Shown here in pieces: positions 3,616 through 48,202 of a stretch of DNA of 52,291 nucleotides. The translations under genes and the position numbers were made by a program. Position 1 is the first letter of the stretch, and each line of letters opens with the position of its first letter. The stretch is from an uncultured virus (IMG/VR IMGVR_UViG_2061766007_002057) (taxonomy: Duplodnaviria > Heunggongvirae > Uroviricota > Caudoviricetes). The stretch lies in the IMG/VR virus record IMGVR_UViG_2061766007_002057; one strand, given 5' to 3'. Under the pieces are notes generated by a model. It saw only the letters and a list, made by a program, of their open reading frames with translations, did not search any database and was not told where the DNA came from.

Positions 3616-3866
3616 TTATTTTTCGAATCCGAGAAGATCTTCAAACGCGATGATAACGAGTTTTTCCCCGTCAACTTCAACGTTTGCTCCGGTGTATCTC
3701 GGGTAGTACACTACGGTCCCAATGGTACAAGACTCCGGTACGGTTTNNNNNNNNNNNNNNNNNNNNNNNNNNNNNNNNNNNNNNNNNNNNNNNNNNNNNN
3801 NAGTGATGTCTTTGCTTCTGTTTCAATGGGTCTGATCAGGACCCGTTGTCCGTACGGTTGAATCAT
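3616..3866 (-). CDS. groES: co-chaperonin GroES (spans an N-gap; missing from the ORF track)
   Basis: Hand translation MIQPYGQRVLIRPIETEAKTS...GTVVYYPRYTGANVEVDGEKLVIIAFEDLLGFEK; ATGA overlap with the nrdD stop. Confidence 0.85.
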
Positions 3867-6666
3867 AATACATCTCCTTCACTTTGCTTAATGTCGAGCA
3901 ACGCTTTAAGGCGTTCCTCTTCCAAATTTATTTTATGTAACTTTTCCGTCTTACACTGCGGGCAATATTTATGCTCTCCTGCTAAATATCCATGAACTGG
4001 ACAGACGGAAAAGGTTGGTGTAATCGAAATATATGGTATTTCGTAGTTGTTGAAAATTGTCTTAACAAGCTGCTTTACTGCGTTAATGTCCGTAACACGC
4101 TCACCCAAATAAAGATGCTGAACTGACCCGCCTGTGTAAAGTGCGTTTATTGCCGACTGATTATCCATCATTTCAAAGATATCATCGGTATAGTTAACTG
4201 GTAACTGAGTGGAGTTAGTGTAGAACGGGGCAGCCCCTTCCTTTTCCACAGTTTCATTATCAGCCACGATGATGTCTGGATACTTCTTTTTGTCGATCTT
4301 TGCAAGACGGAAGCTACAATTATGTACTAAGACCCCCTGGTCACCACCAACAAAATAGTTGTGCATCCCTTCTACTTCAAGGTTGTACACAGGAGCTGTA
4401 TAAGAAAGTGCCTCAACGCTCTCTACAATGTGGTTTGCTTGCAAAATACCGAGTTTAGTTAATCGTCCCTTTACAATAGAATAAGTACATCCGTTACCAA
4501 TTGTTTTTGCAATTTCACTAAGTTTAAGTCCTTGTTCGTAGAGCCGTACAATTTCGTCTGTGTTAATGTTATGCTTATATTTGGAACACTGTTCTGGAGT
4601 ACGTGCTTTAGCCATTTCACTATAACGCTTGCGCATTTCTGGAGACTTAACCATCTCAACAAACCGTTTCAATTTCTTTGGATCAGAAGCTTTTTTACGT
4701 AATACTGCTTTTGTTGCATCACTATGGTGCATGCCATAAAAATGGTTTCTTTCACCAGTTCCAACTAAAAACGTTTCAGGACGTTCCTTATGGTTTATAC
4801 GAAGATGCATGGCTTTATGCTCGGCTTGCGTTAATACCAAAAGGTTTTCTGGTCTATTGTTGCTTTTATTAAAATCCTTATGATGAATAACGTACCCTTC
4901 TTTTAGCTCACCATTAAAGCACTCACTAACAATATGATGTTGCCATTGGCGTGAGTTATGTAATTTATAGCTAAGTTTATTATCATCTTTAAAGGTTATA
5001 TAATCAGATTTTATGCGATTACCAGCACGTAATAATCCAGCTGGAACCCACATAACCCCTTCTACTTTCTTACCGGTTTCCATATTAAATACACGAACAC
5101 CTATTGGGTGATTAGGTGTGCAGACCAAGGTTTGCCCATTAGTAAAAGTAACTTTCACTAGTTTAGCAGCCTTGCTTGTTTGCTTACAGGAAAGCATTTT
5201 ACGTAAACGAACTTTACTAGCCTCCTCATCCCAGCAATAAACGTACACATCATTTTTACCGACAAGGTCCTTTACTTGTACATTGCCTTCCAAAGTCTGC
5301 ACCTCAGTATTGCCTACTATACATGACTCAGCGGGCGACTGCTCTATATTATACTGATGCCCAGTTTCTTTTTGAAACTCAATTGCTTTTTTCTGCAAAT
5401 AGTTCATTACTTTTATAGCAAAAGTACGACCACGTTCGTCACCAATCCCATAGCCAAACATATTTAAGACACATTCATTCATACCAAGAGTAGCAATTGT
5501 GGAAAAGTGATTGGTCCAGTATTCCTTAAAACGGGCATGCGTTTTACGTAAGTAGAATTGAATGGTAGGGAACATGCCGCGTTCCGTCCAATCCTCTACA
5601 AATTTGCGCCTAATTTCCAACGCCTGCTTTGCTAAACCCAATACTTCATCAAGCTCTTTGAAGAACCCATCCTCGTCGTTCTTATGCAGATAACCTAAAC
5701 GTGGAAAGTTAATGGTGCATACTGAAACAGAGCCGGTTAATGGATTAGCACCAAACAACCCACCTTTGCGTTTTAGCTCGTCTAACCTCACCCGGAGCCT
5801 GCAGCACATACTCATTGCGTCGGCCGGGTCTAAGTCAGAAGCAATATAGTTACAGAAGTATGGTTGCCCATACNNNNNNNNNNNNNNNNNNNNNCATCAA
5901 AACGCGGATTGTTCCAGTCAAAATCCTTTGTAATGTTTACGGTAGGGATTGGGAAGGAGAAAATACGACCTTCTGCATCTCCCACATTCATAACCTCAAA
6001 GAAGCACTCATTAAATAAATCCATCTCCTTCTGAAACTCTTTGTAGGTTTTAGCCATCCGTTTCCCGCCTACTAATGCTGGCTTCTCAGCCATGTGTTTT
6101 GGCACAACAAAATCCAATGTACAATTCGAAAATGGGGTTTGCTCACCGACACGTGTTGGGACATTTAAGTTAAAAATAAACTCTTGTACTGCTTGTTTAA
6201 CTTCATCTTTACTTAAGTTATCATAATAAATAAACGGAGCCATCAATGTATCCAAGTTTGACACGGCGATAGCGCCTGCGCAGTCATTTGTTGCACTGTA
6301 AATTAAGTTAACTAATTGACCTAGCGCTGCACGTAAATGTTTAGGCGCGCTAGAACGTACTTTTCCAGGACCAGCATAGAACCCAACCTCTAATAAGTCC
6401 TCCAGGTCTAAGCCCATACAGTACCCCGACAGGGAACCGGAATCATGCAGATGGAATCTCCCATCTACGTGAGCATCTTTACATTGCTTCGGGTACACAT
6501 AATTCATCCAGTAGTATTTAGATACTTCTTCCCGGATATAATTGTTCAATCCCTGCAGTGAATATGCCATGTTTGCATTTTCATTAACACGCCAGTCTGA
6601 CTGACTAACATAGTCCTCTACTAAATTCTTTGCTACAATCTCCATTGGATTTCGTTCTTCGCTCAT
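3863..6666 (-). CDS. nrdD: anaerobic (class III) ribonucleoside-triphosphate reductase large chain, no ATP cone, intein-containing
   Basis: DWRVNENAN, HLHD, GYC, FSFPIPT, YGQPYFCNY, SMCCRL, TGSVSVCTIN, PAES, YTNST, YTGGSVQH, CPVHGY..CPQC. The two track ORFs join across the 5874-5894 gap. Confidence 0.95.
4319..5323 (-). mobile_element. 335-aa intein with HNH/NUMOD3-type endonuclease in nrdD
   Basis: PAES|CIVGNTEV start; CTPNHP block B; HHKDFNKSNNRPENL (HNH); GERNHFYGMHHS (NUMOD3-like); ends VYNLEVEGMHNYFV..VLVHN|C. Confidence 0.92.
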
Positions 6667-11624: not shown

Positions 11625-11666
11625 GGCCAGGACCAGGCCAGGACCAGGCCAGGACCAGGTCAGACC
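11625..11666 (+). repeat. tandem repeat (GGCCAGGACCA)x3 plus a degenerate fourth copy
   Basis: Read directly; sits where gene orientation switches from minus to plus. Confidence 0.9.
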
Positions 11667-12034: not shown

Positions 12035-12100
12035 AATTACGGGGTGGGATANNNNNNNNNNGGGAAACCTTACACTATCAGTATATAGGATAATACCTAT

Positions 12101-12150
12101 ATATAGTATAGTTTATTTTGCTTTTTGCATAGCAAAATAAAAACAATATA
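12101..12150 (+). repeat. 50-bp repeated element copy B (runs into an N-gap)
   Basis: Identical to 11840-11889. Confidence 0.8.
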
Positions 12151-12593
12151 NNNNNNNNNNNNNNNNNNNNNNNNNNNNNNNNNNNNNNNNNNNNNNNNNN
12201 NNNNNNNNNNNNNNNNNNNNNNNNNNNNNNNNNNNNNNNNNNNNNNNNNNNNNNNNNNNNNNNNNNNNNNNNNNNNNNNNNNNNNNNNNNNNNNNNNNNN
12301 NNNNNNNNNNNNNNNNNNNNNNNNNNNNNNNNNNNNNNNNNNNNNNNNNNNNNNNNNNNNNNNNNNNNNNNNNNNNNNNNNNNNNNNNNNNNNNNNNNNN
12401 NNNNNNNNNNNNNNNNNNNNNNNNNNNNNNNNNNNNNNNNNNNNNNNNNNNNNNNNNNNNNNNNNNNNNNNNNNNNNNNNNNNNNNNNNNNNNNNNNNNN
12501 NNNNNNNNNNNNNNNNNNNNNNNNNNNNNNNNNNNNNNNNNNNNNNNNNNNNNNNNNNNNNNNNNNNNNNNNNNNNNNNNNNNNNNNNNNNNN

Positions 12594-13032
12594 TTGGCTG
12601 CAATTAAAAATGTTGGAAAGGGGACTTTCCACACCGTAGAATATAGCAGTTCCCCCAAGCAGAAATGCTTGGCGGAGTTTGCTCTCCGCAAGGTGAGCCG
12701 GTTTCAGGTCCAGTTCGCGGACTATGAAAACAAGTCGGCGGTCAAGGAATACCGCGCCGAGACGGGGGTTGCTGCCAACAACCCCGCAGTACAGAACGAA
12801 GTGGAAGTTGCGGGCTNNNNNNNNNNNNNNNNNNNNNNCCCTCAAATTGAGGGTACCGCTGAAAAATTGCGGGTCGCTCAGTGTAAAATATTACACCGGC
12901 GACCGCGAAATCAGCAAAGAGGAGTATGAACAAATTTACTCCTCTCGGTGTAAGTTACCGCAATCCGCCCCGTCCAAGACGGGAGTGGAGTTCAGAAGTG
13001 TTATGCTGGAAAAGATTACGGAGTTCCGCTAG
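12594..13032 (+). CDS. hypothetical protein (start in gap; two fragments joined)
   Basis: 12594..12929 and 12724..13032 frames switch at an N-gap. Confidence 0.65.
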
Positions 13033-23713: not shown

Positions 23714-24295
23714 ATGAGAAATAAAATAGAGAAAGTAAAACCTACGATGGAAAATATACTTCGTATTGGTGCCAGGATTACGAAGGACCCGCTTATAAAA
23801 TATGCGTTATATCGGGCTGCTGAACAGGCTGCAGTGCTTGGTATTGACCCTAACCCTTGGGGATACCGTAATAAAAATATGAAAGGTGCTGGGGACCCTG
23901 AGGCTTACCAATGTGCTCATATTGAGAACAGACGTATAAAGATGCCGGAAATAGGTAAGGATATTATGATTGTCTGTAATACGCAGTACCCAGAGAAAAC
24001 TCAATGGGGGTATAGGTCGTATAGATTCCGTATCATTAAGCCGCGTATTATATTAATTCCGCATGGTGGATGGCATCGTGGCGGAGAGAGTGTTGTATCT
24101 TACCCGCAATTAAAGAAGTATATCCTGACCACTTGCGTCAAACAGGTTGATGTCAAAGAAAAGAAATATAAGTATAATGACTACTACGGTCATCCGTGTA
24201 CGGCTTCTCAATATAACGTCGTAAGATATATTAACGACGCAAGTAGTATTCCGGAAAATATGAGTGAGGACGATATAATTATAGACATGTGGTAA
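23714..24295 (+). CDS. hypothetical protein
   Basis: AAGGAGG RBS; paralogous to the upstream gene. Confidence 0.75.
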   Translation: MRNKIEKVKPTMENILRIGARITKDPLIKYALYRAAEQAAVLGIDPNPWGYRNKNMKGAGDPEAYQCAHIENRRIKMPEIGKDIMIVCNTQYPEKTQWGYRSYRFRIIKPRIILIPHGGWHRGGESVVSYPQLKKYILTTCVKQVDVKEKKYKYNDYYGHPCTASQYNVVRYINDASSIPENMSEDDIIIDMW

Positions 24296-24305
24296 GGAGG
24301 TACAT

Positions 24306-24608
24306 ATGTATTACACTTCACAACTTATGTATTGGCTTCGGGCAATTAAGGCTGTGTTTCCAGATACATATAAAACAATTCCCGTGGAAGCACGTGTATT
24401 GTTTAGTCAAACCGATATGGCTTGTGGCTCAGTAGAAATAGGGGAAAATACCGGATATGAATTTCTACCTGGACATGACTACTTAGTGCTAAAGTTTGTC
24501 GCGGTGAATGAAATCGGTAATCCAGTTTCAGCTTACCCAAAGCATAAAGGTTTTGACCTAAGCGTGTTGCAAAAATGTTTTGTAGCTAAAATTAAGTGTC
24601 GTCGTTAG
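24306..24608 (+). CDS. hypothetical protein
   Basis: AAGGAGG RBS. Confidence 0.7.
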   Translation: MYYTSQLMYWLRAIKAVFPDTYKTIPVEARVLFSQTDMACGSVEIGENTGYEFLPGHDYLVLKFVAVNEIGNPVSAYPKHKGFDLSVLQKCFVAKIKCRR

Positions 24609-24617
24609 ACGGTGACT

Positions 24618-24646
24618 TGACAACGGGCTCCAAAATATGTACCCTA
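24618..24646 (+). promoter_or_regulatory. sigma70-like promoter preceding the structured non-coding locus
   Basis: TTGACA-17 bp-TACCCT. Confidence 0.5.
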
Positions 24647-24650
24647 AACG

Positions 24651-24909
24651 TAGTGAAGGGTTGAGGGTAACCGAAACCTGAGCGAGGCTTCAGGGTGCCA
24701 GGGCACAGCCCGTTGGCCCGGCCGGGTCCGGCCAAGCCTAGGTCTGTCCGAACTTAAATTATATAAAATAATAATATTAAGTTCTAGGCTATAGGTAAGC
24801 CCGCAGCGTCCCGAAGGGCTTTAGAGCGAGGACTTACCTCAAGGGAATCCCGACGGTCGTAAGCGATAGCGTGTCGGGTTCCCTTCACTAACGACCGTTT
24901 CGTTTTTTT
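24651..24909 (+). ncRNA. candidate ~255-nt structured RNA or ssDNA element
   Basis: Closing stem TAGTGAAGGG/CCCTTCACTA, several internal stems, and a weak hairpin plus T-run at the 3' end; no family recognised. Confidence 0.45.
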
Positions 24910-25004
24910 GGGGGAATTATGTCCAAATTTTGGACCACTCCAAACTGGCCCGGTCTGAACCCGCTGTTGTGTATACGCTATCGCTTACTACCATACACAA
25001 CAGC
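24841..25004. other. pair of oppositely oriented hairpins with a shared 18-nt loop GGT(C/A)GTAAGCGATAGCGT
   Basis: Loop 24855-24872 (+) and loop 24975-24992 (-) are 17/18 identical, on unrelated 12-13 bp stems. Confidence 0.85.
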
Positions 25005-25170
25005 ATAGAAGCATTAAACGTACAAAACAGCCGTAGTTTAATGCTTTTAGATACTCTACATATTTACGTTTCACTTAAACAACTTAACAACAACGACAAC
25101 GACTTACCATAGGCTATGGTAAGGCAGGAAATACACACCATTTCGCGGCCGCCCGCCGCGCGGAGGTACT

Positions 25171-25794
25171 ATGCGACATAAAATAAAAGAAGTAGATGAT
25201 ACTCTTTGTATTCCTACGGCCAGCTTGTTAGAGTTCTATCATAACTATGCTACAAGTAAAAATCAAAGACAAATTCTTTTCTCGGTTATTCGTAAACTTA
25301 GAGAAGCCTGCCTTAAGGGCAGGGTTATGCGCTGGGATATGCAACTGCAGTTAATCAAACAGAAAGAAACACAAGTAATTAGAGTGTACAACATAGTCGA
25401 TGGTAAGGTAAGTATAAATATCTTTACCAATGAGCCTGGCAAGGGAAAACTTTCTTTCCAAGGTATAGAGTGGCTTGTCCCGTTTAATCCTATTGAGGAC
25501 AGAGTTGGTGCCGCTTTTATCTCATGTACAGGAAGTCTGGTAAAATCAAGAAGCCTTATGCGTCAATGGTTTACTCCGACATTTTCTTACACGCCTATAA
25601 CAATTTGTTCTCAAAAATACAGAGATGGGTTCTTTATTCTTAACACTTGTTTTTTACAGAAAATATCGGCACACCTACTTAGACACTATACTTACTTCGC
25701 CGGTATAAAGAAAATCAAACTAATTTCAAAAGGAGGGAAATATGTCAAAACTAAAGTCAAACATAAAAGTGGATTACAAAAGACGGACCGTTAA
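25171..25794 (+). CDS. hypothetical protein
   Basis: GGAGG RBS. Confidence 0.7.
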   Translation: MRHKIKEVDDTLCIPTASLLEFYHNYATSKNQRQILFSVIRKLREACLKGRVMRWDMQLQLIKQKETQVIRVYNIVDGKVSINIFTNEPGKGKLSFQGIEWLVPFNPIEDRVGAAFISCTGSLVKSRSLMRQWFTPTFSYTPITICSQKYRDGFFILNTCFLQKISAHLLRHYTYFAGIKKIKLISKGGKYVKTKVKHKSGLQKTDR

Positions 25795-26362
25795 GTTTCC
25801 ACCACTTGTATTAAGATATCTTACCGCATGGTCTCACGAGAGCGGTTACGATTACCAGTACGAATGGTCTGACTGGCGGTTTCTCTCTTATTGTACCAAA
25901 CAGTTAGAGCTAGCCCGTTATATGCTTAACCAAGCACTTGCTATTGGGGAGTGTCGTATGTATGAATACGTCTGCGGCAATAGGTATAACGTGTTTACAG
26001 AGCCTGACTTAAGTCATGAGAAAGCTCGTGTTTATGTACTGTATGAGATGCAACCATTTGCCTTACTGTTAGTTGTAGGTTGTGGGTCCCACTTCTTAGA
26101 AGTAGTAGAAAGTGACGGAAGGTACAGCAAGAGCCACACCTTTGGATATTACCGTCGTAGAAAAGGTAGACGTATTGACTCCTTTTCTGGTTGGTCAAGG
26201 CAGGTAAAACTTCCAAACGGTGTTGTGTCTGCCTTTCCAGATGCATTGGGTAAAAAGGAAGCCGCACCAATAGAATCAAACTGTTACACAATAGTAAAAA
26301 TAAGTAGTTATATACCAAAAGAAATGGAGGTAGTACAAAATGACAAAGAAAATATTCAGTAA
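25742..26362 (+). CDS. hypothetical protein
   Basis: AAGGAGG RBS. Confidence 0.7.
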   Translation: MSKLKSNIKVDYKRRTVKFPPLVLRYLTAWSHESGYDYQYEWSDWRFLSYCTKQLELARYMLNQALAIGECRMYEYVCGNRYNVFTEPDLSHEKARVYVLYEMQPFALLLVVGCGSHFLEVVESDGRYSKSHTFGYYRRRKGRRIDSFSGWSRQVKLPNGVVSAFPDALGKKEAAPIESNCYTIVKISSYIPKEMEVVQNDKENIQ

Positions 26363-30325: not shown

Positions 30326-30394
30326 CTACCTCCAACTAATACGGGACCATGCCAGGGCCGGAACAACCCTCCTCCGGTCCTGGCCGATTTATAA

Positions 30395-30572
30395 GGCCAG
30401 GAGTCTGTACAAGTCAGGACCAACTACTATTAGGCCAGTAGTCTGTCTTTTTTTCAGTAGTGGTACTATTATTAGGCCAGAACTCTGTCCTGGCCGAGCC
30501 AGGCCCTATACATACGGCCAGAAGTCTGTCTTTTTATTACGTACACACATAGGACCAGGCCAGTATTCTGTC
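30395..30572 (+). repeat. five phased copies of GGCCAGnAnTCTGT(C)
   Basis: Starts at 30395, 30433, 30475, 30516, 30558 (periods 38, 42, 41, 42). Confidence 0.85.
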
Positions 30573-30613
30573 CTGGCTCGGTCATACCTTTCTTATTTTA
30601 CGGAGGTCTTTTT

Positions 30614-31081
30614 ATGAAGAACCCAGAGACTTTACTATTAAATTATGCACATATTTTATCCTGTTGTACATTGGGAAGATATCTATCCCTGTCTGACTTT
30701 GTATCTTGTATTGGGTCTGAACTTTTCTGTGCAGGTAATTTTAATATAGTTTACAAGAGCGCACCTACATATACAGTATATACAGTTACGACATTTAAAA
30801 AGGACATACACATATACTCCGACCCCAATGTTTTATCTGTACGAATCAGGCGTGGGATACTAACACCCAAAGACGTATTTATGTATCTGGGATATAATAG
30901 CATCAGATATGACTACTATTGGTTTGATCTGGCATTGAAGTATAAGAAACCCCTATATGATTTACTTACGGGTATAGTTAATGGGTCCGAGGCTATTATT
31001 CCCATACCCATGCCGATCTTTAATAGCCAGGTATGGCCGGAGCAGGGTGCAAAAGTTATAGTGCTCGGTCAGATTGTGTAA
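30614..31081 (+). CDS. hypothetical protein, clear paralog of 31672..32139
   Basis: LLLxY..L.CC.LGRY...SDF, IYS...SV, PLY.LL, PMPIFN shared. Confidence 0.8.
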   Translation: MKNPETLLLNYAHILSCCTLGRYLSLSDFVSCIGSELFCAGNFNIVYKSAPTYTVYTVTTFKKDIHIYSDPNVLSVRIRRGILTPKDVFMYLGYNSIRYDYYWFDLALKYKKPLYDLLTGIVNGSEAIIPIPMPIFNSQVWPEQGAKVIVLGQIV

Positions 31082-31187
31082 AGGCCAGGCCGGAACTCAA
31101 AAAATTAAGGCTAATTTTTGTGTTTTACCCTGAGAGCTTTTTACATTTTATCCTTATATTTTAAGGAAAATAGGAGAACCACATTTT

Positions 31188-31601: not shown

Positions 31602-31671
31602 TGTGTTTTACCCCTATGACTTTTGACATTTTATGCTTAAAATATAAGGATAATTTGGGGGAGGACTTTTT

Positions 31672-32139
31672 ATGAAAAATAATGAGATTTTACTGCTAAA
31701 ATATGTATATGCCCTAACTTGTTGTGCATTGGGAAGATATATAGCTATGTCAGATTTCATAGAGGCAATGGGACTAGGGCTTATCTGTACAAGCGACTTT
31801 GCAGAATCTATAGGATTTAAGAATACAACACTCACCTATTGTATAACAAATTCCTATAGAACTGTCTATATATACTCTACCATGGATTCTATATCTGTCC
31901 AGGTCCGGCCAGGCGCAATTCTTTGTAATGATTCTTATATAGGTATGGGAAAAGATAAAACCGCTAACTCCTATTGGAATACTATAGCAAGTAAGTATAC
32001 ACAACCACTATATACTCTACTCTTAAATACTATTACTATGGATGTCCCTATCCTTTCCTTACCTATGCCTATCTTTAATAAGAAGTGTGAGTTTAGGGAA
32101 GAGAAGTATATAGGCCTGGCCAGGCCATACCACTTGTAA
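31672..32139 (+). CDS. hypothetical protein, paralog of 30614..31081
   Basis: GGAGG RBS; shared motifs. Confidence 0.8.
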   Translation: MKNNEILLLKYVYALTCCALGRYIAMSDFIEAMGLGLICTSDFAESIGFKNTTLTYCITNSYRTVYIYSTMDSISVQVRPGAILCNDSYIGMGKDKTANSYWNTIASKYTQPLYTLLLNTITMDVPILSLPMPIFNKKCEFREEKYIGLARPYHL

Positions 32140-32437
32140 GAGTGGTATGGNNNNNNNNNNNNNNNNNNNNNNNNNNNNNNNNNNNNNNNNNNNNNNNNNN
32201 NNNNNNNNNNNNNNNNNNNNNNNNNNNNNNNNNNNNNNNNNNNNNNNNNNNNNNNNNNNNNNNNNNNNNNNNNNNNNNNNNNNNNNNNNNNNNNNNNNNN
32301 NNNNNNNNNNNNNNNNNNNNNNNNNNNNNNNNNNNNNNNNNNNNNNNNNNNNNNNNNNNNNNNNNNNNNNNNNNNNNNNNNNNNNNNNNNNNNNNTATAT
32401 TTGTTATAAGATTTTAATATACAAGGGGGAAATAAAT

Positions 32438-33450
32438 ATGTCTTGTTTGGATAATAAAGAAATTAAGAAACTTATTGTTAAATTGTTATATAGTGCTTTT
32501 AATATATCGGGTAATGATGAGTTAAGATATGCTCCATTATCCTATATGGTTGATTTAGATGATAATGTTGCATTTCTTAGGGGTCCTTATTTAGATATTG
32601 CATNNNNNNNNNNNNNNNNNNNNNNNNNNNNAATGGGTTTATTATTGAAAGTTCTTTGTACTATACAAAAGTGTTTATATATTCAAATAAATATAGTGTA
32701 ATGCCTAACATTGTTAGAGTGATTGCCCATGTTAAATATGATGAGAACTTGAAATTGAGATTTCATAACCCAAAGTTTGAGTTGTTTAGGGAGCCGTTTA
32801 TTAAAAACNNNNNNNNNNNNNNNNNNNCAAAGAATCGTATGGTAGGACCAATAAGGAACTTGACAAACAAAACGCAAAGGAGTATTTTGGGTATGGAATT
32901 AACAAAAACAAATCTGGGAAAGCAGATGAAAAAGCAAATTAAGAACGAAGTTTTAAGTATGACCCATGCAGTTTTTGATGGTATGAAAGAAAAAGTCAAA
33001 GGTACGCAGAGATTAAAGAAAGCAGACCGTATTAAGATAGGGTCAATACTTTACAAAATGTTCTATACCGTACGTAACCTTGCCATGAGTTGTGAAAGGT
33101 GCGGCAGTATGGAAATGCGGCCTTTTCAATACGGCGCAGTTGAAATATGGAAAAACAAAGACGGAGCTATAACGGTATCTTGTTATGATTTTAACTTTGC
33201 GATAGGTAAAGGTGTAAGGGAAATAGATTACACTTTGAACACTACGGAAGATCATAGGGGTTATAGTGTAGTTGCTTCATACAATAAACTGTACGCTTCG
33301 GCATATAACCACCATATCATACATAAAGCAGTANNNNNNNNNNNNNNNNNNNNNNNNNNNNNNNNNNNNNNNNTTATTAAAGCCGATAAAGACAAGACGA
33401 TGCTACCTATGGGAAGAACTTACGGGGATATATGGAGAACAGCAGATTAA
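32438..33450 (+). CDS. one or two hypothetical proteins interrupted by three gaps
   Basis: AGGGGG RBS at ATG 32438; open frames between gaps. Confidence 0.5.
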
Positions 33451-33869: not shown

Positions 33870-34324
33870 ATGAAAAACAATACAATAACTAAAACTAATA
33901 TAGTGAAACATATTATTAAGATCATTAAGTATGTTTGCACTTTTCATAACCTAAATACAAGAAGAAATGCTAAAAAGTATAATGGGACAGATACTATTAT
34001 ACAAGTACAAAACTCAGGGGATCTTTGGATAAGAGATGATTGGTACGGGGATGCCGAAATAGATGATGGTAATGGCAATAAAGAGTTACCTATCATCATA
34101 ACAAATAATAAATTGCGTATTGAGTTTGTAAGGGATGAAGTTGTGTTTAAGTTGTTTTACGGTAACGGCAAACCCGTCCTTACAGAACGTATATCAAGGG
34201 TGGATGTTGCTTATTTTAATAAAGCCCTTGTAAAGATAACTGCAAAGCATATAGTAAACGAAGTTAACAAGTTATATACAAACATAACAAAAAACTACAA
34301 AGATCCTACAAAGAAAATAGGGGA
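33870..34324 (+). CDS. hypothetical protein, 3' end in a large gap
   Basis: AGGGG RBS; open for about 150 codons. Confidence 0.6.
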
Positions 34325-35624
34325 NNNNNNNNNNNNNNNNNNNNNNNNNNNNNNNNNNNNNNNNNNNNNNNNNNNNNNNNNNNNNNNNNNNNNNNNNNNN
34401 NNNNNNNNNNNNNNNNNNNNNNNNNNNNNNNNNNNNNNNNNNNNNNNNNNNNNNNNNNNNNNNNNNNNNNNNNNNNNNNNNNNNNNNNNNNNNNNNNNNN
34501 NNNNNNNNNNNNNNNNNNNNNNNNNNNNNNNNNNNNNNNNNNNNNNNNNNNNNNNNNNNNNNNNNNNNNNNNNNNNNNNNNNNNNNNNNNNNNNNNNNNN
34601 NNNNNNNNNNNNNNNNNNNNNNNNNNNNNNNNNNNNNNNNNNNNNNNNNNNNNNNNNNNNNNNNNNNNNNNNNNNNNNNNNNNNNNNNNNNNNNNNNNNN
34701 NNNNNNNNNNNNNNNNNNNNNNNNNNNNNNNNNNNNNNNNNNNNNNNNNNNNNNNNNNNNNNNNNNNNNNNNNNNNNNNNNNNNNNNNNNNNNNNNNNNN
34801 NNNNNNNNNNNNNNNNNNNNNNNNNNNNNNNNNNNNNNNNNNNNNNNNNNNNNNNNNNNNNNNNNNNNNNNNNNNNNNNNNNNNNNNNNNNNNNNNNNNN
34901 NNNNNNNNNNNNNNNNNNNNNNNNNNNNNNNNNNNNNNNNNNNNNNNNNNNNNNNNNNNNNNNNNNNNNNNNNNNNNNNNNNNNNNNNNNNNNNNNNNNN
35001 NNNNNNNNNNNNNNNNNNNNNNNNNNNNNNNNNNNNNNNNNNNNNNNNNNNNNNNNNNNNNNNNNNNNNNNNNNNNNNNNNNNNNNNNNNNNNNNNNNNN
35101 NNNNNNNNNNNNNNNNNNNNNNNNNNNNNNNNNNNNNNNNNNNNNNNNNNNNNNNNNNNNNNNNNNNNNNNNNNNNNNNNNNNNNNNNNNNNNNNNNNNN
35201 NNNNNNNNNNNNNNNNNNNNNNNNNNNNNNNNNNNNNNNNNNNNNNNNNNNNNNNNNNNNNNNNNNNNAGGAATATTTGAAGAAAAACTACAAGGGCAGT
35301 ATACCGAGTGGGTTTTTTTGCTATACGTATGCAATACACAAAATACTGTTTCCTTTGTTTGGAACAATTGGGTTTCTTATTAAACGTATTGAGGGAGTGA
35401 ACGACAGCGGAAACTTGTATGGCATAATACCCTTGGAANNNNNNNNNNNNNNNNNGTGACTTATTCTAAAGACAATACACTCGTTGTCCAAAAAGTGAAA
35501 CTTGCCGTTGATTTACTGCCTGGAACGTTTACACTTGACAATCTTCCGTTAAGACATTTACTACAAATACTTATGTCGTTAAGAAAATATGTTAAGTCTT
35601 CGATAAAACAGGAGCTGAAAGTAT

Positions 35625-47082: not shown

Positions 47083-48202
47083 ATGCGTGTAGAGGCTGCA
47101 GTCATATCTGACATACAACTTGCTAAGGACTATCCGTTTGNNNNNNNNNNNNNNNNNNNNNNNNNNNNNNNNNNNNNNNNNNNNNNNNNNNNNNNNNNNN
47201 NNNNNNNNNNNNNNNNNNNNNNNNNNNNNNNNNNNNNNNNNNNNNNNNNNNNNNNNNNNNNNNNNNNNNNNNNNNNNNNNNNNNNNNNNNNNNNNNNNNN
47301 NNNNNNNNNNNNNNNNNNNNNNNNNNNNNNNNNNNNNNNNNNNNNNNNNNNNNNNNNNNNNNNNNNNNNNNNNNNNNNNNNNNNNNNNNNNNNNNNNNNN
47401 NNNNNNNNNNNNNNNNNNNNNNNNNNNNNNNNNNNNNNNNNNNNNNNNNNNNNNNNNNNNNNNNNNNNNNNNNNNNNNNNNNNNNNNNNNNNNNNNNNNN
47501 NNNNNNNNNNNNNNNNNNNNNNNNNNNNNNNNNNNNNNNNNNNNNNNNNNNNNNNNNNNNNNNNNNNNNNNNNNNNNNNNNNNNNNNNNNNNNNNNNNNN
47601 NNNNNNNNNNNNNNNNNAACGAAAGCGTTGTATTATATGAAGAGTATATACCAGGAAGAAACTTCTATGTTGTTATAGACAGACGCAAAGCTCACCATAT
47701 GGCAGTAGGAGACGACCACAACATTTTTATAACAGCGCCTGAGTTTTCAAAATATACATTTTTGTGCCAAACAAAACGAAACACAAAAGGCAACTTATAT
47801 GTTAAGTCGATAGTAAGCACTGGATTAGATAAAGACATAACCAATTACTTACGTCGCAACACAAAGTTCAGTAAGCTAATAATTGAATTTCGTTTGAAGA
47901 GCACAGCGTTTGGTGGGAATAAAAAAGAGTTAATTCCAAAGCGCAATTTACTTATAGTAACAGACGTATACGTAAATGATTTTCCATTTGGTAAATTTCT
48001 TTCCGTAAATGAGAGGAATTATTTCGCAAAGAATCTTGAGTTACTTACACCAAAATTAGTAAAATACGATGAGTTCTCATTTGATACAGCAGTACAATTG
48101 GGAAAAGAAAATGGAATTGTAGTTAGATCAGAAGACGGTAAAAAGCGCGGTGTGTTTCACACATACAAAGATAGGCTACGACGAAAACATATATTACATT
48201 GA
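47083..48202 (+). CDS. possible degenerate Rnl2/DRB0094-like RNA ligase homolog (large internal gap)
   Basis: Motif order YEEYIPGRN, IIEF, IVTDV, FL...E....LELLTP.L, ENGIVVR follows nucleotidyltransferase motifs I, III, IIIa, IV, with catalytic residues replaced. Confidence 0.4.

What the first reader, a model, noticed from the sequence alone, without database searches (positions are those of the whole stretch)
24618..24909. Promoter, ~255-nt multi-stem element and T-run: candidate novel ncRNA or ssDNA promoter with alternative folds
Seen: TTGACA-17-TACCCT, then a unit closed by TAGTGAAGGG (24651-24660) with CCCTTCACTA (24881-24890) and by TTGAGGGTAA with TTACCTCAA. Inner stems include TTGGCC/GGCCAA, AGCCTA/TAGGCT, GAACTTAA/TTAAGTTC around an all-AT loop, and AGGTAAGCC/GGACTTACCT. 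It ends in AACGA-CCGTT-TCGTT plus Ts. Some pairings are mutually exclusive: ACGGTCGT (24853-24860) can pair with ACGACCGT (24891-24898) and disrupt the 3' hairpin. The promoter spacer CAACGGGCT is complementary to AGCCCGTTG (24707-24715), and TACCCT to AGGGTA/AGGGTG, as in folded single-stranded promoters (Frpo, ssoA). Inference: a structured RNA (possibly a replication primer or attenuator) or an ssDNA promoter.
Basis: partly seen in the sequence, partly recalled or inferred. Interest (0 to 1): 0.7.

Follow-up and report, generated by a model that had tools for sequence, protein, structure and literature searches.

The report
Folded phage RNA with matching loops
A rumen phage has a 560-base gene-free stretch that probably makes a highly folded regulatory RNA whose exposed loop matches a loop just downstream, which suggests an untested RNA-on-RNA switch for the next genes.

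Summary
TTGACA starts at 24617. The 266-nt unit folds better than all 200 shuffles (z -3.96), but the minus strand folds as well. It matches no Rfam family and holds no tRNA. No relative was found beyond strains about 94-99% identical in ruminant-gut metagenomes.

The element is the first module of a 562-nt gene-free, heavily folded gap (24609-25170) between two plus-strand gene blocks of a large uncultured phage. The 18-nt loop of hairpin A (24855-24872) is 17/18 complementary to the 18-nt loop of hairpin B (24975-24992). The two stems are unrelated.

Hairpin B lies in a 29-codon ORF with a phage-typical ribosome site. That ORF's stop codon opens a terminator-like hairpin C. A C-rich linker and a hairpin that covers the ribosome site of gene 25171 follow.

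In a strain about 5% divergent, all 5 indels over 1.6 kb fall in this gap, and two of them remove both partners of one predicted base pair.

Best reading (about 0.4): a plus-strand regulatory RNA or leader acting by loop-loop pairing, designed like P1 c4 and P4 CI but not a member of that family. There are no transcript data and no real covariation. The ssDNA-promoter idea is not supported.

The parts
24617..24645 (+). Promoter-like site TTGACA-17-TACCCT. It starts 9 nt after the stop codon (24606-24608) of the upstream gene.
   Evidence: One search finds the pattern. One search does not list it, because the second hexamer matches 3 of 6. Three better TTGACA/TATAAT-type sites stand before other genes of the window (8318+, 41951+, 3371-). 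The stretch 24626-24668 shows no difference in the roughly 5% divergent X6 contig.
24651..24890 (+). 5' multi-helix domain closed by P1 (24651-56 with 24885-90, extendable to 10 bp).
   Evidence: (I6). Pair probabilities for the outer 6 bp are 0.65-0.96. The inner 4 bp compete with P2 and hairpin A.
24658..24679 (+). P2 hairpin GGGUU-GA-GG-[GUAA]-CC-GA-AACCU, with a GNRA-type loop and GA/GA internal loop.
   Evidence: -8.2 kcal/mol. Strain variants A24675G and T24679C, shared by X6 and X8, keep the pairing (U-A to U.G, G.U to G-C). X6 lacks one A of the GUAA loop.
24736..24790 (+). Hairpin with a 19-nt all-A/U loop. It contains the 27-nt pure A/T run 24754-24780.
   Evidence: I17; -14.4 kcal/mol; longest A/T run of the window, next 17 nt.
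24841..24885 (+). Hairpin A, with stems 24841-54 and 24873-85. Its 18-nt loop 24855-24872 is complementary to the loop of hairpin B.
   Evidence: (I1, I13), (-22.9 kcal/mol). One search gives inner-stem probabilities of 0.96-1.0. One search gives 4.6 kcal/mol to open the loop.
24863..24909 (+). 3' end region. It holds a weak hairpin 24890-24904 (-1.9 kcal/mol) or an alternative hairpin 24863-76 with 24892-24903 (-11.5 kcal/mol, exclusive with hairpin A), then T7 at 24903-24909.
   Evidence: Enforcing the alternative hairpin costs 9 kcal/mol overall (-94.2 against -103.2).
24910..25008 (+). GGGGG-4 nt-ATG, then a 29-codon ORF (ATG 24919, TAG 25006-25008).
   Evidence: Direct reading. One search shows that phage genes here carry GGAGG 4-8 nt before ATG. 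No indel in X6 falls inside it. C24950T changes Pro to Leu.
24963..25004 (+). Hairpin B, with a 12-bp perfect stem. Its 18-nt loop 24975-24992 is 17/18 complementary to the loop of hairpin A.
   Evidence: (I1, I5), (loop fully unpaired; -14.9 kcal/mol; 0.8 kcal/mol to open the loop; duplex -26.9 kcal/mol).
25006..25052 (+). Hairpin C, a terminator-like stem ending in UUUU. Its first three bases are the stop codon of the 29-codon ORF.
   Evidence: I2; -15.4 kcal/mol. X6 lacks both 25022 and 25034, which are predicted partners of one A-U pair.
25050..25102 (+). Unstructured C-rich, G-poor linker (13 C, 4 G in 53 nt).
   Evidence: C minus G is 13 in 60 nt, which is the top 0.9% of the window. It is unpaired.
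25103..25123 (.). Perfect 10+1+10 palindrome CTTACCATAG-G-CTATGGTAAG. It could be an RNA hairpin or a protein-binding site.
   Evidence: I8; -8.4 kcal/mol.
25137..25170 (+). GC-rich hairpin that pairs the GGAGG (25162-25166) of gene 25171.
   Evidence: -14.7 kcal/mol. X6 has TG inserted behind 25161, in the predicted bulge.
25171..25794 (+). First gene after the leader, 207 aa, no known family.
   Evidence: Searches give no family. One search finds only itself and one variant at 86% identity. Searches give no usable model or look-alike.

Best explanation
The element is the first module of a plus-strand regulatory RNA region, 24617-25170, at an operon boundary of a large rumen phage.

Transcription is proposed to start about 24651, at the foot of the closing helix P1. 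This lies 6 nt after TTGACA-17-TACCCT. The RNA folds into a roughly 240-nt multi-helix domain and meets a T7 run at 24903-24909. Molecules that stop there form an RNA of about 255 nt. Molecules that read through carry the second module:
- a 29-codon ORF with a phage-type ribosome site
- hairpin B inside that ORF
- terminator-like hairpin C, which begins at the ORF's stop codon
- a C-rich linker
- a hairpin that covers the ribosome site of gene 25171

The key contact is loop-loop (kissing) pairing between the 18-nt loop of hairpin A (24855-24872) and the 18-nt loop of hairpin B (24975-24992). It could form between a terminated RNA and a read-through leader, or within one read-through molecule. 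I propose that this pairing hinders ribosomes on the short ORF or changes the leader's fold. Hairpin C, and perhaps Rho on the C-rich linker, would then stop transcription, so that less expression reaches gene 25171 and the genes after it.

In design this is like c4 of phage P1 and CI of P4, where regulator and target lie in tandem in one leader.

Shown here:
- the anatomy
- the folding outlier
- the uniqueness of the loop match
- the placement of the strain indels

Inferred:
- that the RNA is made
- its ends
- that the loops meet
- the direction of the effect
For: 1. Folding. The unit 24645-24910 has z -3.96 and the second module 24908-25185 has z -4.32. In each case 0 of 200 shuffles fold as well.

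2. The strongest inverted repeat of 24560-25200 is I1, 24855-24872 with 24975-24992, 17 of 18. Each arm is exactly the loop of its own hairpin, and the two stems are unrelated.

3. Uniqueness. The 18-mer with up to 3 mismatches occurs only at these two places in 52 kb. The expected count is 0.03, and 0 of 100 shuffles gave 2 matches. Among 15,723 24-nt windows of both strands, hairpin B's loop is the best partner of loop A apart from its own antisense. It scores -28.8 kcal/mol, against -22.0 for the next and a mean of -6.7 with sd 2.8.

4. Energetics. The duplex is worth -26.9 kcal/mol, and opening the two loops costs 4.6 and 0.8 kcal/mol.

5. Strand and ends. All neighbouring genes are on the plus strand. 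TTGACA lies 9 nt after the upstream stop codon. P1 begins 6 nt after the second hexamer and ends 12 nt before the T7 run.

6. The gap is non-coding and its folds look constrained. In a 39-kb contig of run X6 (87 substitutions over 1601 nt), all 5 indel events lie in the 562-nt gap and none lies in the 1,039 nt of flanking ORFs. Their places are the GUAA loop (24669), both partners of one predicted A-U pair of hairpin C (25022 and 25034), a linker (25134) and a bulge (25161). About 34% of the region is predicted unpaired.

7. Two substitutions shared by X6 and X8 in helix P2 keep it paired through wobble pairs that work only on the plus strand.

8. No sigma-70-like site was listed between 24908 and 25170. 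Gene 25171 may therefore depend on read-through.
Against: - No RNA data exist. No listed run holding the stretch is on record as RNA.
- No relative beyond about 94% identity was found, so there is no true covariation test.
- 51 rows of strain differences were not shown. These include all X6 substitutions after 24680 except 24950. I therefore do not know whether the two loops vary.
- The minus strand folds as well as the plus strand.
- The second promoter hexamer is poor, and the scan tool did not call it.
- The hairpin before the T run is very weak (-1.9 kcal/mol). The stronger alternative has probability about 0 at equilibrium.
- Two closed 18-nt loops cannot pair over all 17 bp without partial unwinding of the stems.
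- The target loop lies 56 nt inside the short ORF, not on a ribosome site as in c4.
- X6 deletes one base of the GNRA-type loop of P2.
- The paired deletion in hairpin C could also arise by template switching in a DNA quasi-palindrome.
Confidence: 0.4

Rival explanations
1. Purely cis-acting leader or attenuator. The P1-closed 240-nt domain senses a ligand or protein. It decides between hairpin A plus P1 (weak stop, read-through) and the alternative hairpin 24863-76 with 24892-24903 plus T7 (termination). The loop A to loop B match is only a tertiary contact of the full-length leader, or is irrelevant.
For: - The layout is promoter, then a closed multi-helix domain, then mutually exclusive 3' hairpins, then T7, then genes on the same strand.
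- The alternative hairpin is worth -11.5 kcal/mol, against -1.9 for the small one.
- The direct repeat GAGCGAGG (24680 and 24824) offers two partners for AAGCCCGC.
- No separate promoter was listed for gene 25171.
Against: - No Rfam riboswitch, T-box or leader model matches, even at E up to 10.
- No conserved family was found in any collection, unlike known riboswitch classes.
- The alternative terminator costs 9 kcal/mol and has probability about 0.
- This reading leaves the unique 17/18 loop-loop match unexplained.
Confidence: 0.2
2. A stable structured RNA or 3'-UTR structure with a different job. It could be a 3' end and stability element of the upstream operon, or an sRNA with targets elsewhere in the unseen part of the genome or in the host. 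The downstream hairpins would be unrelated terminator and ribosome-site structures.
For: - The element follows directly on the stop codon of gene 24306-24608.
- Only 52 kb of a larger genome was seen, with 3,948 N.
- Another operon boundary at 30.3-30.6 kb is also packed with GC-rich hairpins and T runs.
- The exact loop-B 18-mer occurs in an alpha/beta-hydrolase gene of six gut or rumen Clostridia loci.
Against: - The best partner of loop A in the window is hairpin B, 102 nt away, and it is presented in a loop.
- The hydrolase hits are one gene family among 17 hits, where I estimate about 35 by chance, and the complementarity does not extend beyond the 18-mer.
Confidence: 0.12
3. Replication origin with a transcript-primed start, either as a promoter plus DNA-unwinding element (as described for T4 oriF, recalled) or as a ColE1-like primer RNA. 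The 27-nt pure A/T run would be the unwinding element.
For: - The longest A/T run of the window lies about 110 nt after a promoter-like site, inside GC-rich DNA.
- About 520 nt of folded RNA is reminiscent of ColE1 RNA II.
Against: - No iterons were found in 24560-25200.
- There is no lasting switch of GC skew there.
- No replication gene was recognised next to it.
- The A/T run is framed by a perfect 8-bp inverted repeat nested in further helices, as expected for an RNA hairpin loop.
- The indel pattern tracks RNA-type helices far from the A/T run.
Confidence: 0.07
4. No dedicated function. The region would be a GC-rich non-coding spacer whose helices are by-products of palindromic repeats common in this phage's intergenic DNA.
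For: - GGCCAGG/CCTGGCC-type palindromes recur in other gaps (11625-11663, 30340-30590).
- Both strands fold equally.
- In a GC-corrected 200-nt scan, 24701-24900 ranks only 15th of 521 windows.
Against: - The z-scores against shuffles are -4 for both modules.
- Nested long-range closure coincides with the promoter-like site and the T run.
- The 17/18 loop-loop match is unique in the window.
- Indels are confined to predicted unpaired places or remove a whole pair.
Confidence: 0.1
5. DNA inversion switch. The 18-bp inverted repeats 24855-72 and 24975-92 would be recombination sites that flip the 102-bp segment carrying the T run and the start of the short ORF.
For: - The repeats are 17/18 inverted and flank a short segment that holds a terminator-like signal.
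- Short invertible regulatory segments are known in gut bacteria (recalled).
Against: - No recombinase was found among the 77 ORFs scanned against Pfam.
- Contigs from three runs that cross one or both repeats (X3, X6, X8) are colinear with the window, and no joint was reported in the 4 runs laid.
- Each arm is enclosed by its own unrelated stem. That has no role in recombination, and inversion would destroy it.
Confidence: 0.04
6. Single-stranded-DNA promoter of the Frpo or ssoA kind.
For: The promoter spacer CAACGGGCT is complementary to AGCCCGTTG 24707-15 (I10).
Against: - The window is a large phage with no relaxase or rolling-circle Rep found among 77 ORFs.
- A 9-nt match is at chance level.
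- Strain X6 carries G24625T inside the spacer.
- The hexamers lie outside the closed unit.
Confidence: 0.02

Closest known systems
c4 antisense RNA of phages P1 and P7 (immI operon c4-icd-ant; Rfam RF01695) and CI RNA of satellite phage P4
   Same: Regulator and target are encoded in tandem on the same strand, in the leader of the operon they control. Short complementary stretches are displayed in hairpin loops. I read passages of PMC8198154 on the c4-icd-ant1/2 operon and the C4 binding site. The details on loops, processing and P4 are recalled.
   Different: - No match to the Rfam C4 model.
- This RNA would be about 255 nt with its own promoter-like site and T run, not a processed RNA of about 70-77 nt.
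- It has one 18-nt match inside a short ORF, not two short matches over a ribosome site.
- The downstream genes are not icd or ant.
Kissing-loop antisense control of plasmids (ColE1 RNA I/RNA II, R1 CopA/CopT; recalled)
   Same: Recognition starts between hairpin loops. There is a long folded leader or primer-like RNA.
   Different: In those systems the two RNAs come from opposite strands of the same DNA, so whole hairpins are complementary. Here both partners are on one strand, 102 nt apart, and only the loops match.
OxyS sRNA with fhlA mRNA loop-loop complex (E. coli; recalled)
   Same: A trans pairing between hairpin loops of an sRNA and of an mRNA, one site of which lies inside the coding region.
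   Different: OxyS uses two loops of 7-9 nt, and its target is encoded far away. Here there is one 18-nt match to a neighbouring leader.
Riboswitch and leader attenuators with terminator/antiterminator platforms
   Same: The order is promoter, P1-closed multi-helix domain, mutually exclusive 3' hairpins, U run, then genes.
   Different: There is no match to any Rfam class, no conserved family, and no hint of a ligand. The terminator alternative is thermodynamically disfavoured.

Membership tests
P1/P7 C4 antisense RNA (Rfam RF01695) and P4 CI RNA | Sequence and structure match the family covariance model | tested here: not met
   No Rfam match at gathering score in the whole window. No C4 match at E up to 10 in 24400-25300.
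P1/P7 C4 antisense RNA (Rfam RF01695) and P4 CI RNA | Regulator and its target sites lie in tandem on one strand in the leader of the regulated operon | tested here: met
   Loop A 24855-72 and loop B 24975-92 are both on the plus strand, between the promoter-like site at 24617 and gene 25171.
P1/P7 C4 antisense RNA (Rfam RF01695) and P4 CI RNA | The target covers the ribosome site of the first gene (c4), or pairing causes early termination in the leader (CI) | tested here: inconclusive
   The target loop lies 56 nt inside a 29-codon ORF, not on a ribosome site. A terminator-like hairpin C starts at that ORF's stop codon. No functional test was possible.
P1/P7 C4 antisense RNA (Rfam RF01695) and P4 CI RNA | The operon encodes icd/ant-type anti-repressor functions, and the RNA is cut out of the leader by RNase P | tested here: not met
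   The downstream proteins match no Pfam or PHROG family of that kind. Processing cannot be tested with these tools.
Known riboswitch, T-box or leader classes (Rfam) | Match to a curated aptamer or leader model | tested here: not met
   The only hits were tsr25 (E 0.73) and IRES_IGF2 (E 1.7), both far below gathering score.
Known riboswitch, T-box or leader classes (Rfam) | Alternative terminator and antiterminator folds overlapping the closing helix | tested here: inconclusive
   Mutually exclusive hairpins exist. The terminator form is 9 kcal/mol worse, and nothing shows a switch.
Single-stranded-DNA promoters (Frpo of F, ssoA of rolling-circle plasmids) | The host element has a single-stranded DNA stage (conjugative transfer or rolling-circle replication) | tested here: not met
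   The gene content is that of a large phage (NrdD with intein, ThyX, GroEL-like, RuvB-like, deformylase). No relaxase or Rep was found among 77 ORFs scanned.
Single-stranded-DNA promoters (Frpo of F, ssoA of rolling-circle plasmids) | The -35 and -10 hexamers are rebuilt as duplex inside the folded single strand | tested here: not met
   In the folds the hexamers (24617-45) lie outside the closed unit. The only support is a 9-nt match at chance level, which G24625T breaks in strain X6 unless an unseen change compensates.
Intrinsic (factor-independent) terminator | A stable GC-rich hairpin directly followed by a U run | tested here: inconclusive
   The T7 run is present at 24903-09. The adjacent hairpin is only -1.9 kcal/mol with 2 G-C pairs and was not listed by the scan. 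An alternative hairpin of -11.5 kcal/mol abuts the run.
Invertible DNA switch (inverton) | Inverted repeats plus a recombinase, with both orientations present in populations | tested here: not met
   The repeats are present. No recombinase was found among 77 ORFs. Only one orientation appears in the contigs and no joints were reported in 4 runs. Contigs can hide minority forms.

The most novel reading that the evidence does not exclude
The 560-nt gap encodes a new class of two-module phage RNA switch. A large sensor-like RNA domain of about 240 nt, found in no catalogued family, would use an 18-nt kissing loop to control a cascade in front of a block of phage genes. The cascade consists of a leader peptide, a terminator and a masked ribosome site. 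This would couple sRNA-type pairing with attenuation in one locus.
Probability: 0.15. Interest if true: 0.7.

Novelty: new variant of a known kind. Interest (0 to 1): 0.45.

Why it matters
Few regulatory RNAs are known from large uncultured phages, and rumen phages are almost unstudied at the RNA level. If the loop-loop contact is real, this locus is a compact, testable example of RNA-on-RNA control at a phage operon boundary. It also carries a large folded domain of unknown purpose. Together with similar designs noted elsewhere in this scan (unchecked leads), it would suggest that leader-targeting loop RNAs are a common phage strategy beyond P1 and P4. If the contact is not real, the locus is only a well-folded intergenic spacer in one phage lineage.

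Tried and rejected
**Known families**
- Rfam at gathering score on the whole window gave 0 hits. Rfam at E up to 10 on 24400-25300 gave two chance-level hits.
- ARAGORN found 0 tRNA or tmRNA genes.

**Relatives**
- GenBank phages by DNA gave no match.
- The downstream protein gave no match in phages.
- The two flanking proteins have only themselves and one 86% variant among 5.8 billion clusters.
- IMG/VR gave nothing with the downstream protein, three DNA patterns and two further neighbour proteins.
- One upstream protein gave only 20-56-residue matches.
- The GP88-like neighbour has 38 IMG/VR relatives. The best one (L001, 62% identity) lies on a contig that starts about 1.26 kb before it. 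That 66-kb record has no element.
- JGI metagenome contigs gave no relative with the protein (156 pattern matches, none confirmed) and no match with a 25-mer that is invariant among strains.
- GTDB genome contigs with the 18-mer gave 17 single hits and no second copy nearby.
- The stretch 24300-25800 was searched against 401 + 401 genomes of two Clostridia orders. No homologue of the element was found in those searched.
- blastn and nhmmer of the gap against all 71 fetched loci returned only the seeded 18-mers.

**RNA evidence**
- No RNA holder was listed among the 17 runs.

**Function of the downstream gene**
- The AlphaFold model had pLDDT 36 and is unusable.
- The ESM Atlas gave no usable hit.

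**Strand choice**
- Counting G.U pairs did not decide the strand.

**Scripts and other look-ups**
Smaller scans replaced them.
- No whole genome is held for the window.
- Earlier-findings look-ups by place and by sequence returned nothing.

**Ideas considered and dropped**
- Type I toxin-antitoxin: the 29-aa peptide is not hydrophobic, and the two partners are not convergent or overlapping.
- Retron, CRISPR or transposon guide RNA: no RT, Cas or TnpB-type protein was found among the 77 ORFs scanned.
- Hammerhead or other small ribozymes: no Rfam hit.
- MITE-like insertion: the 12/14 inverted repeat 24629-42 with 24921-34 has no flanking duplication, and the element is present in all strains seen.
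Full report
**Setting**

The window is a gapped scaffold with 51 N runs and 3,948 N, at 40% G+C. It comes from a large uncultured phage. Its genes include:
- an anaerobic ribonucleotide reductase split by an intein with an HNH domain, and a radical-SAM activase-like gene
- ThyX
- a GroEL-like chaperonin
- a RuvB-like ATPase
- peptide deformylase
- an AAA_5 ATPase next to a DUF2201/VWA protein

The closest GenBank phages share only about 32-34% protein identity in GroEL.

Near-identical DNA is held by 17 public runs from 9 studies. Most are labelled bovine or goat gut metagenomes. Two of the runs may be the source of the window.

Genes from 13.5 kb onward are on the plus strand. They carry GGAGG 4-8 nt before ATG. 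TTGACA/TATAAT-type sites stand before several genes. This points to a host that uses Shine-Dalgarno sites and sigma-A-type promoters (inference).

**Observation**

TTGACA-17-TACCCT is at 24617-24645, and the T run is 24903-24909. As RNA, 24645-24910 folds to -103.2 kcal/mol with z -3.96, and 0 of 200 shuffles fold as well.

Five qualifications apply:
- The minus strand folds equally well (z -4.52), and G.U counts do not settle the strand.
- The promoter scan does not list the site, because TACCCT matches only 3 of 6.
- The AACGA/TCGTT hairpin is worth only -1.9 kcal/mol.
- The 9-nt spacer complementarity is about what chance gives (my estimate).
- In a cruder GC-corrected scan of 521 windows, 24701-24900 ranks 15th. 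Several higher ranks border N runs.

The all-A/T loop is a true outlier. The 27-nt A/T run 24754-24780 is the longest in the window, and the next longest is 17 nt.

**Not a known family, and no distant relatives**

Rfam gave nothing at gathering score and only two chance-level hits at E up to 10. There are no tRNA or tmRNA genes.

Every route to relatives failed beyond strain level:
- GenBank phages
- the 5.8-billion protein collection for both flanking proteins
- IMG/VR
- JGI metagenome contigs
- GTDB contigs
- 802 genomes of two Clostridia orders
- all 71 fetched loci

The GP88-like neighbour has 38 IMG/VR relatives. The only close one sits on a contig that begins about 1.26 kb before it and lacks the element.

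The element lies in a 562-nt gap, 24609-25170, between two ORFan genes. The second half of the gap, 24908-25185, is as strongly folded as the first (z -4.32, 0 of 200 shuffles).

The strongest inverted repeat of the region joins the two halves. It pairs 24855-24872 with 24975-24992 at 17 of 18 positions (I1). Each arm is precisely the 18-nt loop of its own hairpin:
- hairpin A, 24841-24885, -22.9 kcal/mol
- hairpin B, 24963-25004, a 12-bp perfect stem, -14.9 kcal/mol

The two stems are unrelated. A duplicated palindrome therefore does not explain the match.

The match is unique in the window. The 18-mer with up to 3 mismatches occurs only at these two places in 52 kb, against 0.03 expected, and 0 of 100 shuffles gave two matches. 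Of 15,723 24-nt windows on both strands, hairpin B's loop is the best partner of loop A apart from its own antisense. It scores -28.8 kcal/mol, against -22.0 for the next and a mean of -6.7 with sd 2.8.

The loop duplex is worth -26.9 kcal/mol, and opening the loops costs 4.6 and 0.8 kcal/mol.

**Anatomy of the second module**

Directly after the T run comes GGGGG, then 4 nt, then ATG at 24919. A 29-codon ORF follows and ends at TAG 25006-25008. The spacing to the ATG is the same as for gene 25171, which has GGAGG-4 nt-ATG.

The remaining parts, in order, are:
- Hairpin B lies inside this ORF.
- The stop codon forms the first three bases of hairpin C (25006-25049, -15.4 kcal/mol), whose 3' arm ends in UUUU.
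- A C-rich, G-poor unpaired linker follows (13 C and 4 G in 53 nt, top 0.9% of the window for C minus G).
- A perfect 21-bp palindrome follows (25103-25123).
- A GC-rich hairpin pairs the GGAGG of gene 25171.

No sigma-70-like site was listed between 24908 and 25170.

**Alternative 3' folds**

Enforcing it costs 7 kcal/mol (-96.2 against -103.2).

A better hairpin, 24863-76 with 24892-24903 (-11.5 kcal/mol), abuts the T run. It excludes hairpin A, costs 9 kcal/mol overall, and has probability about 0 at equilibrium.

As drawn, then, termination at 24909 should be leaky (inference). Read-through molecules would carry loop A and loop B together.

**Strain evidence**

A 39-kb contig of run X6 covers 24000-25600 with 87 substitutions and 5 indel events. 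All 5 indels lie in the 562-nt gap, and none lies in the 1,039 nt of flanking ORFs. This confirms that the gap is non-coding. It also frameshifts the mechanical 60-aa ORF 24930-25112, while no indel falls in the 29-codon ORF.

With the folds, the indels fall as follows:
- 24669 lies in the GUAA loop of P2.
- 25022 and 25034 are the two partners of one predicted A-U pair inside hairpin C, so a whole base pair is removed.
- 25134 lies in the linker.
- The TG insertion behind 25161 lies in a bulge.

About 34% of the region is predicted unpaired. I estimate about 1% for two of five random indels hitting partners of one pair.

X6 and X8 share three substitutions in the element:
- A24675G turns U-A into U.G in P2.
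- T24679C turns G.U into G-C in P2.
- G24680A lies at a position that is unpaired in the MFE fold.

These wobble pairs work only on the plus strand. The same changes would break the CCUGA/UCAGG hairpin (24677-81 with 24690-94), since no shared change at 24691 or 24692 was listed.

The important limit is that the table showed 40 rows and hid 51. By my reading the hidden rows include all X6-only substitutions after 24680. I cannot say whether the loops or the other helices vary.

**Mechanism proposed**

A plus-strand RNA starts near 24651 and folds into the P1-closed domain. It then either ends at the T7 run, giving an RNA of about 255 nt, or reads through.

Loop A pairs with loop B, in trans or within a read-through molecule. 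Pairing inside the short ORF would impede ribosomes or remodel the leader. Hairpin C, and perhaps Rho on the C-rich linker, would then stop transcription. The masked ribosome site of gene 25171 would stay closed.

Free translation of the short ORF up to the foot of hairpin C would do the opposite.

Only the anatomy, the statistics and the indel pattern are shown. Transcription, the RNA ends, the contact and the direction of the effect are inferred. I put about 0.4 on loop-loop regulation of the downstream genes, and much less on the detailed cascade.

**Rivals**

- A purely cis-acting sensor or attenuator (0.2) fits the layout, but it has no family support and leaves the loop match unexplained.
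- A stable RNA or 3'-UTR with other targets (0.12) cannot be excluded from 52 kb of a larger genome.
- An origin with a promoter and unwinding element (0.07) would use the A/T run, but there are no iterons, no skew switch and no replication genes nearby.
- An inversion switch (0.04) lacks a recombinase and a second orientation.
- The ssDNA-promoter idea (0.02) fails both features tested.
- No dedicated function (0.1).

**Comparison with known systems**

The design is closest to c4 of P1/P7 and CI of P4, where regulator and target lie in tandem in one leader. I read passages of PMC8198154. The finer points are recalled.

The element is not a member of that family. There is no Rfam C4 match. Its size, ends, number and place of target sites, and downstream genes all differ.

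Other entries of this scan describe phage RNAs whose loops match leader loops. I did not check them, and I use them only as context.

**Verdict**

This is a real, unusually folded, non-coding region with a striking and statistically unique loop-loop match. It is probably a regulatory RNA of a known general kind in a new form. It is unproven for lack of transcripts and of diverged relatives.

Noticed in passing
window 30340-30590: A second structured operon boundary. It holds five copies of GGCCAGnAnTCTGTC at spacings of 38-42 nt (5 matches against 0.52 expected). Two of them run into T runs (30448, 30531), just before gene 30614. They may be tandem terminators or protein-binding repeats.
   Followed up: partly
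window 11625-11663: A tandem repeat GGCCAGGACCA x3.5 sits next to an N run in the divergent region between the minus-strand and plus-strand gene blocks. It has the same GGCCAGG flavour as the repeats at 30.4 kb and as the GC-rich centre of the element.
   Followed up: no
L041, L049, L051, L052, L055, L056 (GTDB contigs); window 24975-24992: The exact 18-nt loop-B sequence occurs in the sense strand of one orthologous alpha/beta-hydrolase gene (396 aa, Pfam Abhydrolase_6) in six loci of gut or rumen Clostridia MAGs. Loop A would be 17/18 antisense to that mRNA. This is one gene family among 17 hits, where I estimate about 35 by chance, and the match does not extend. It is probably coincidence.
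   Followed up: partly
window 25194-25219; L065 1501-1526, L066: The 5' part of gene 25171 shares 26 of 26 (and 27 of 28) identical bases, in the same reading frame (DDTLCIPT), with a glutamine synthetase type III gene (Pfam GSIII_N) in 2 of 401 genomes of one Clostridia order (E 8e-6 per genome). No CRISPR repeats lie around it. It may be a short patch of host-derived sequence and a hint to the host.
   Followed up: partly
window 3863-6666 (minus strand): The anaerobic ribonucleotide reductase NrdD is in two ORFs (278 aa and 650 aa). The larger one carries an intein with an HNH_3 domain. An N run lies at 5874-5894, near the junction.
   Followed up: no
window 31119-31171 and 31602-31654; 30595-30699 and 31653-31757: Repeated leader and gene-start segments (79% and 73% identity) stand in front of paralogous small genes (30614, 31188, 31672). 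This looks like a small cassette array with a shared upstream region.
   Followed up: no
window 25103-25123: A perfect 10+1+10 palindrome CTTACCATAG-G-CTATGGTAAG lies about 50 nt before gene 25171. It could be an operator for a DNA-binding protein rather than an RNA hairpin.
   Followed up: no
window, whole: The window has 51 N runs (3,948 bases). Several mechanical ORFs run across them (for example 12078-12845, 32147-32701, 34272-35339, 47120-48202) and should not be read as genes.
   Followed up: partly
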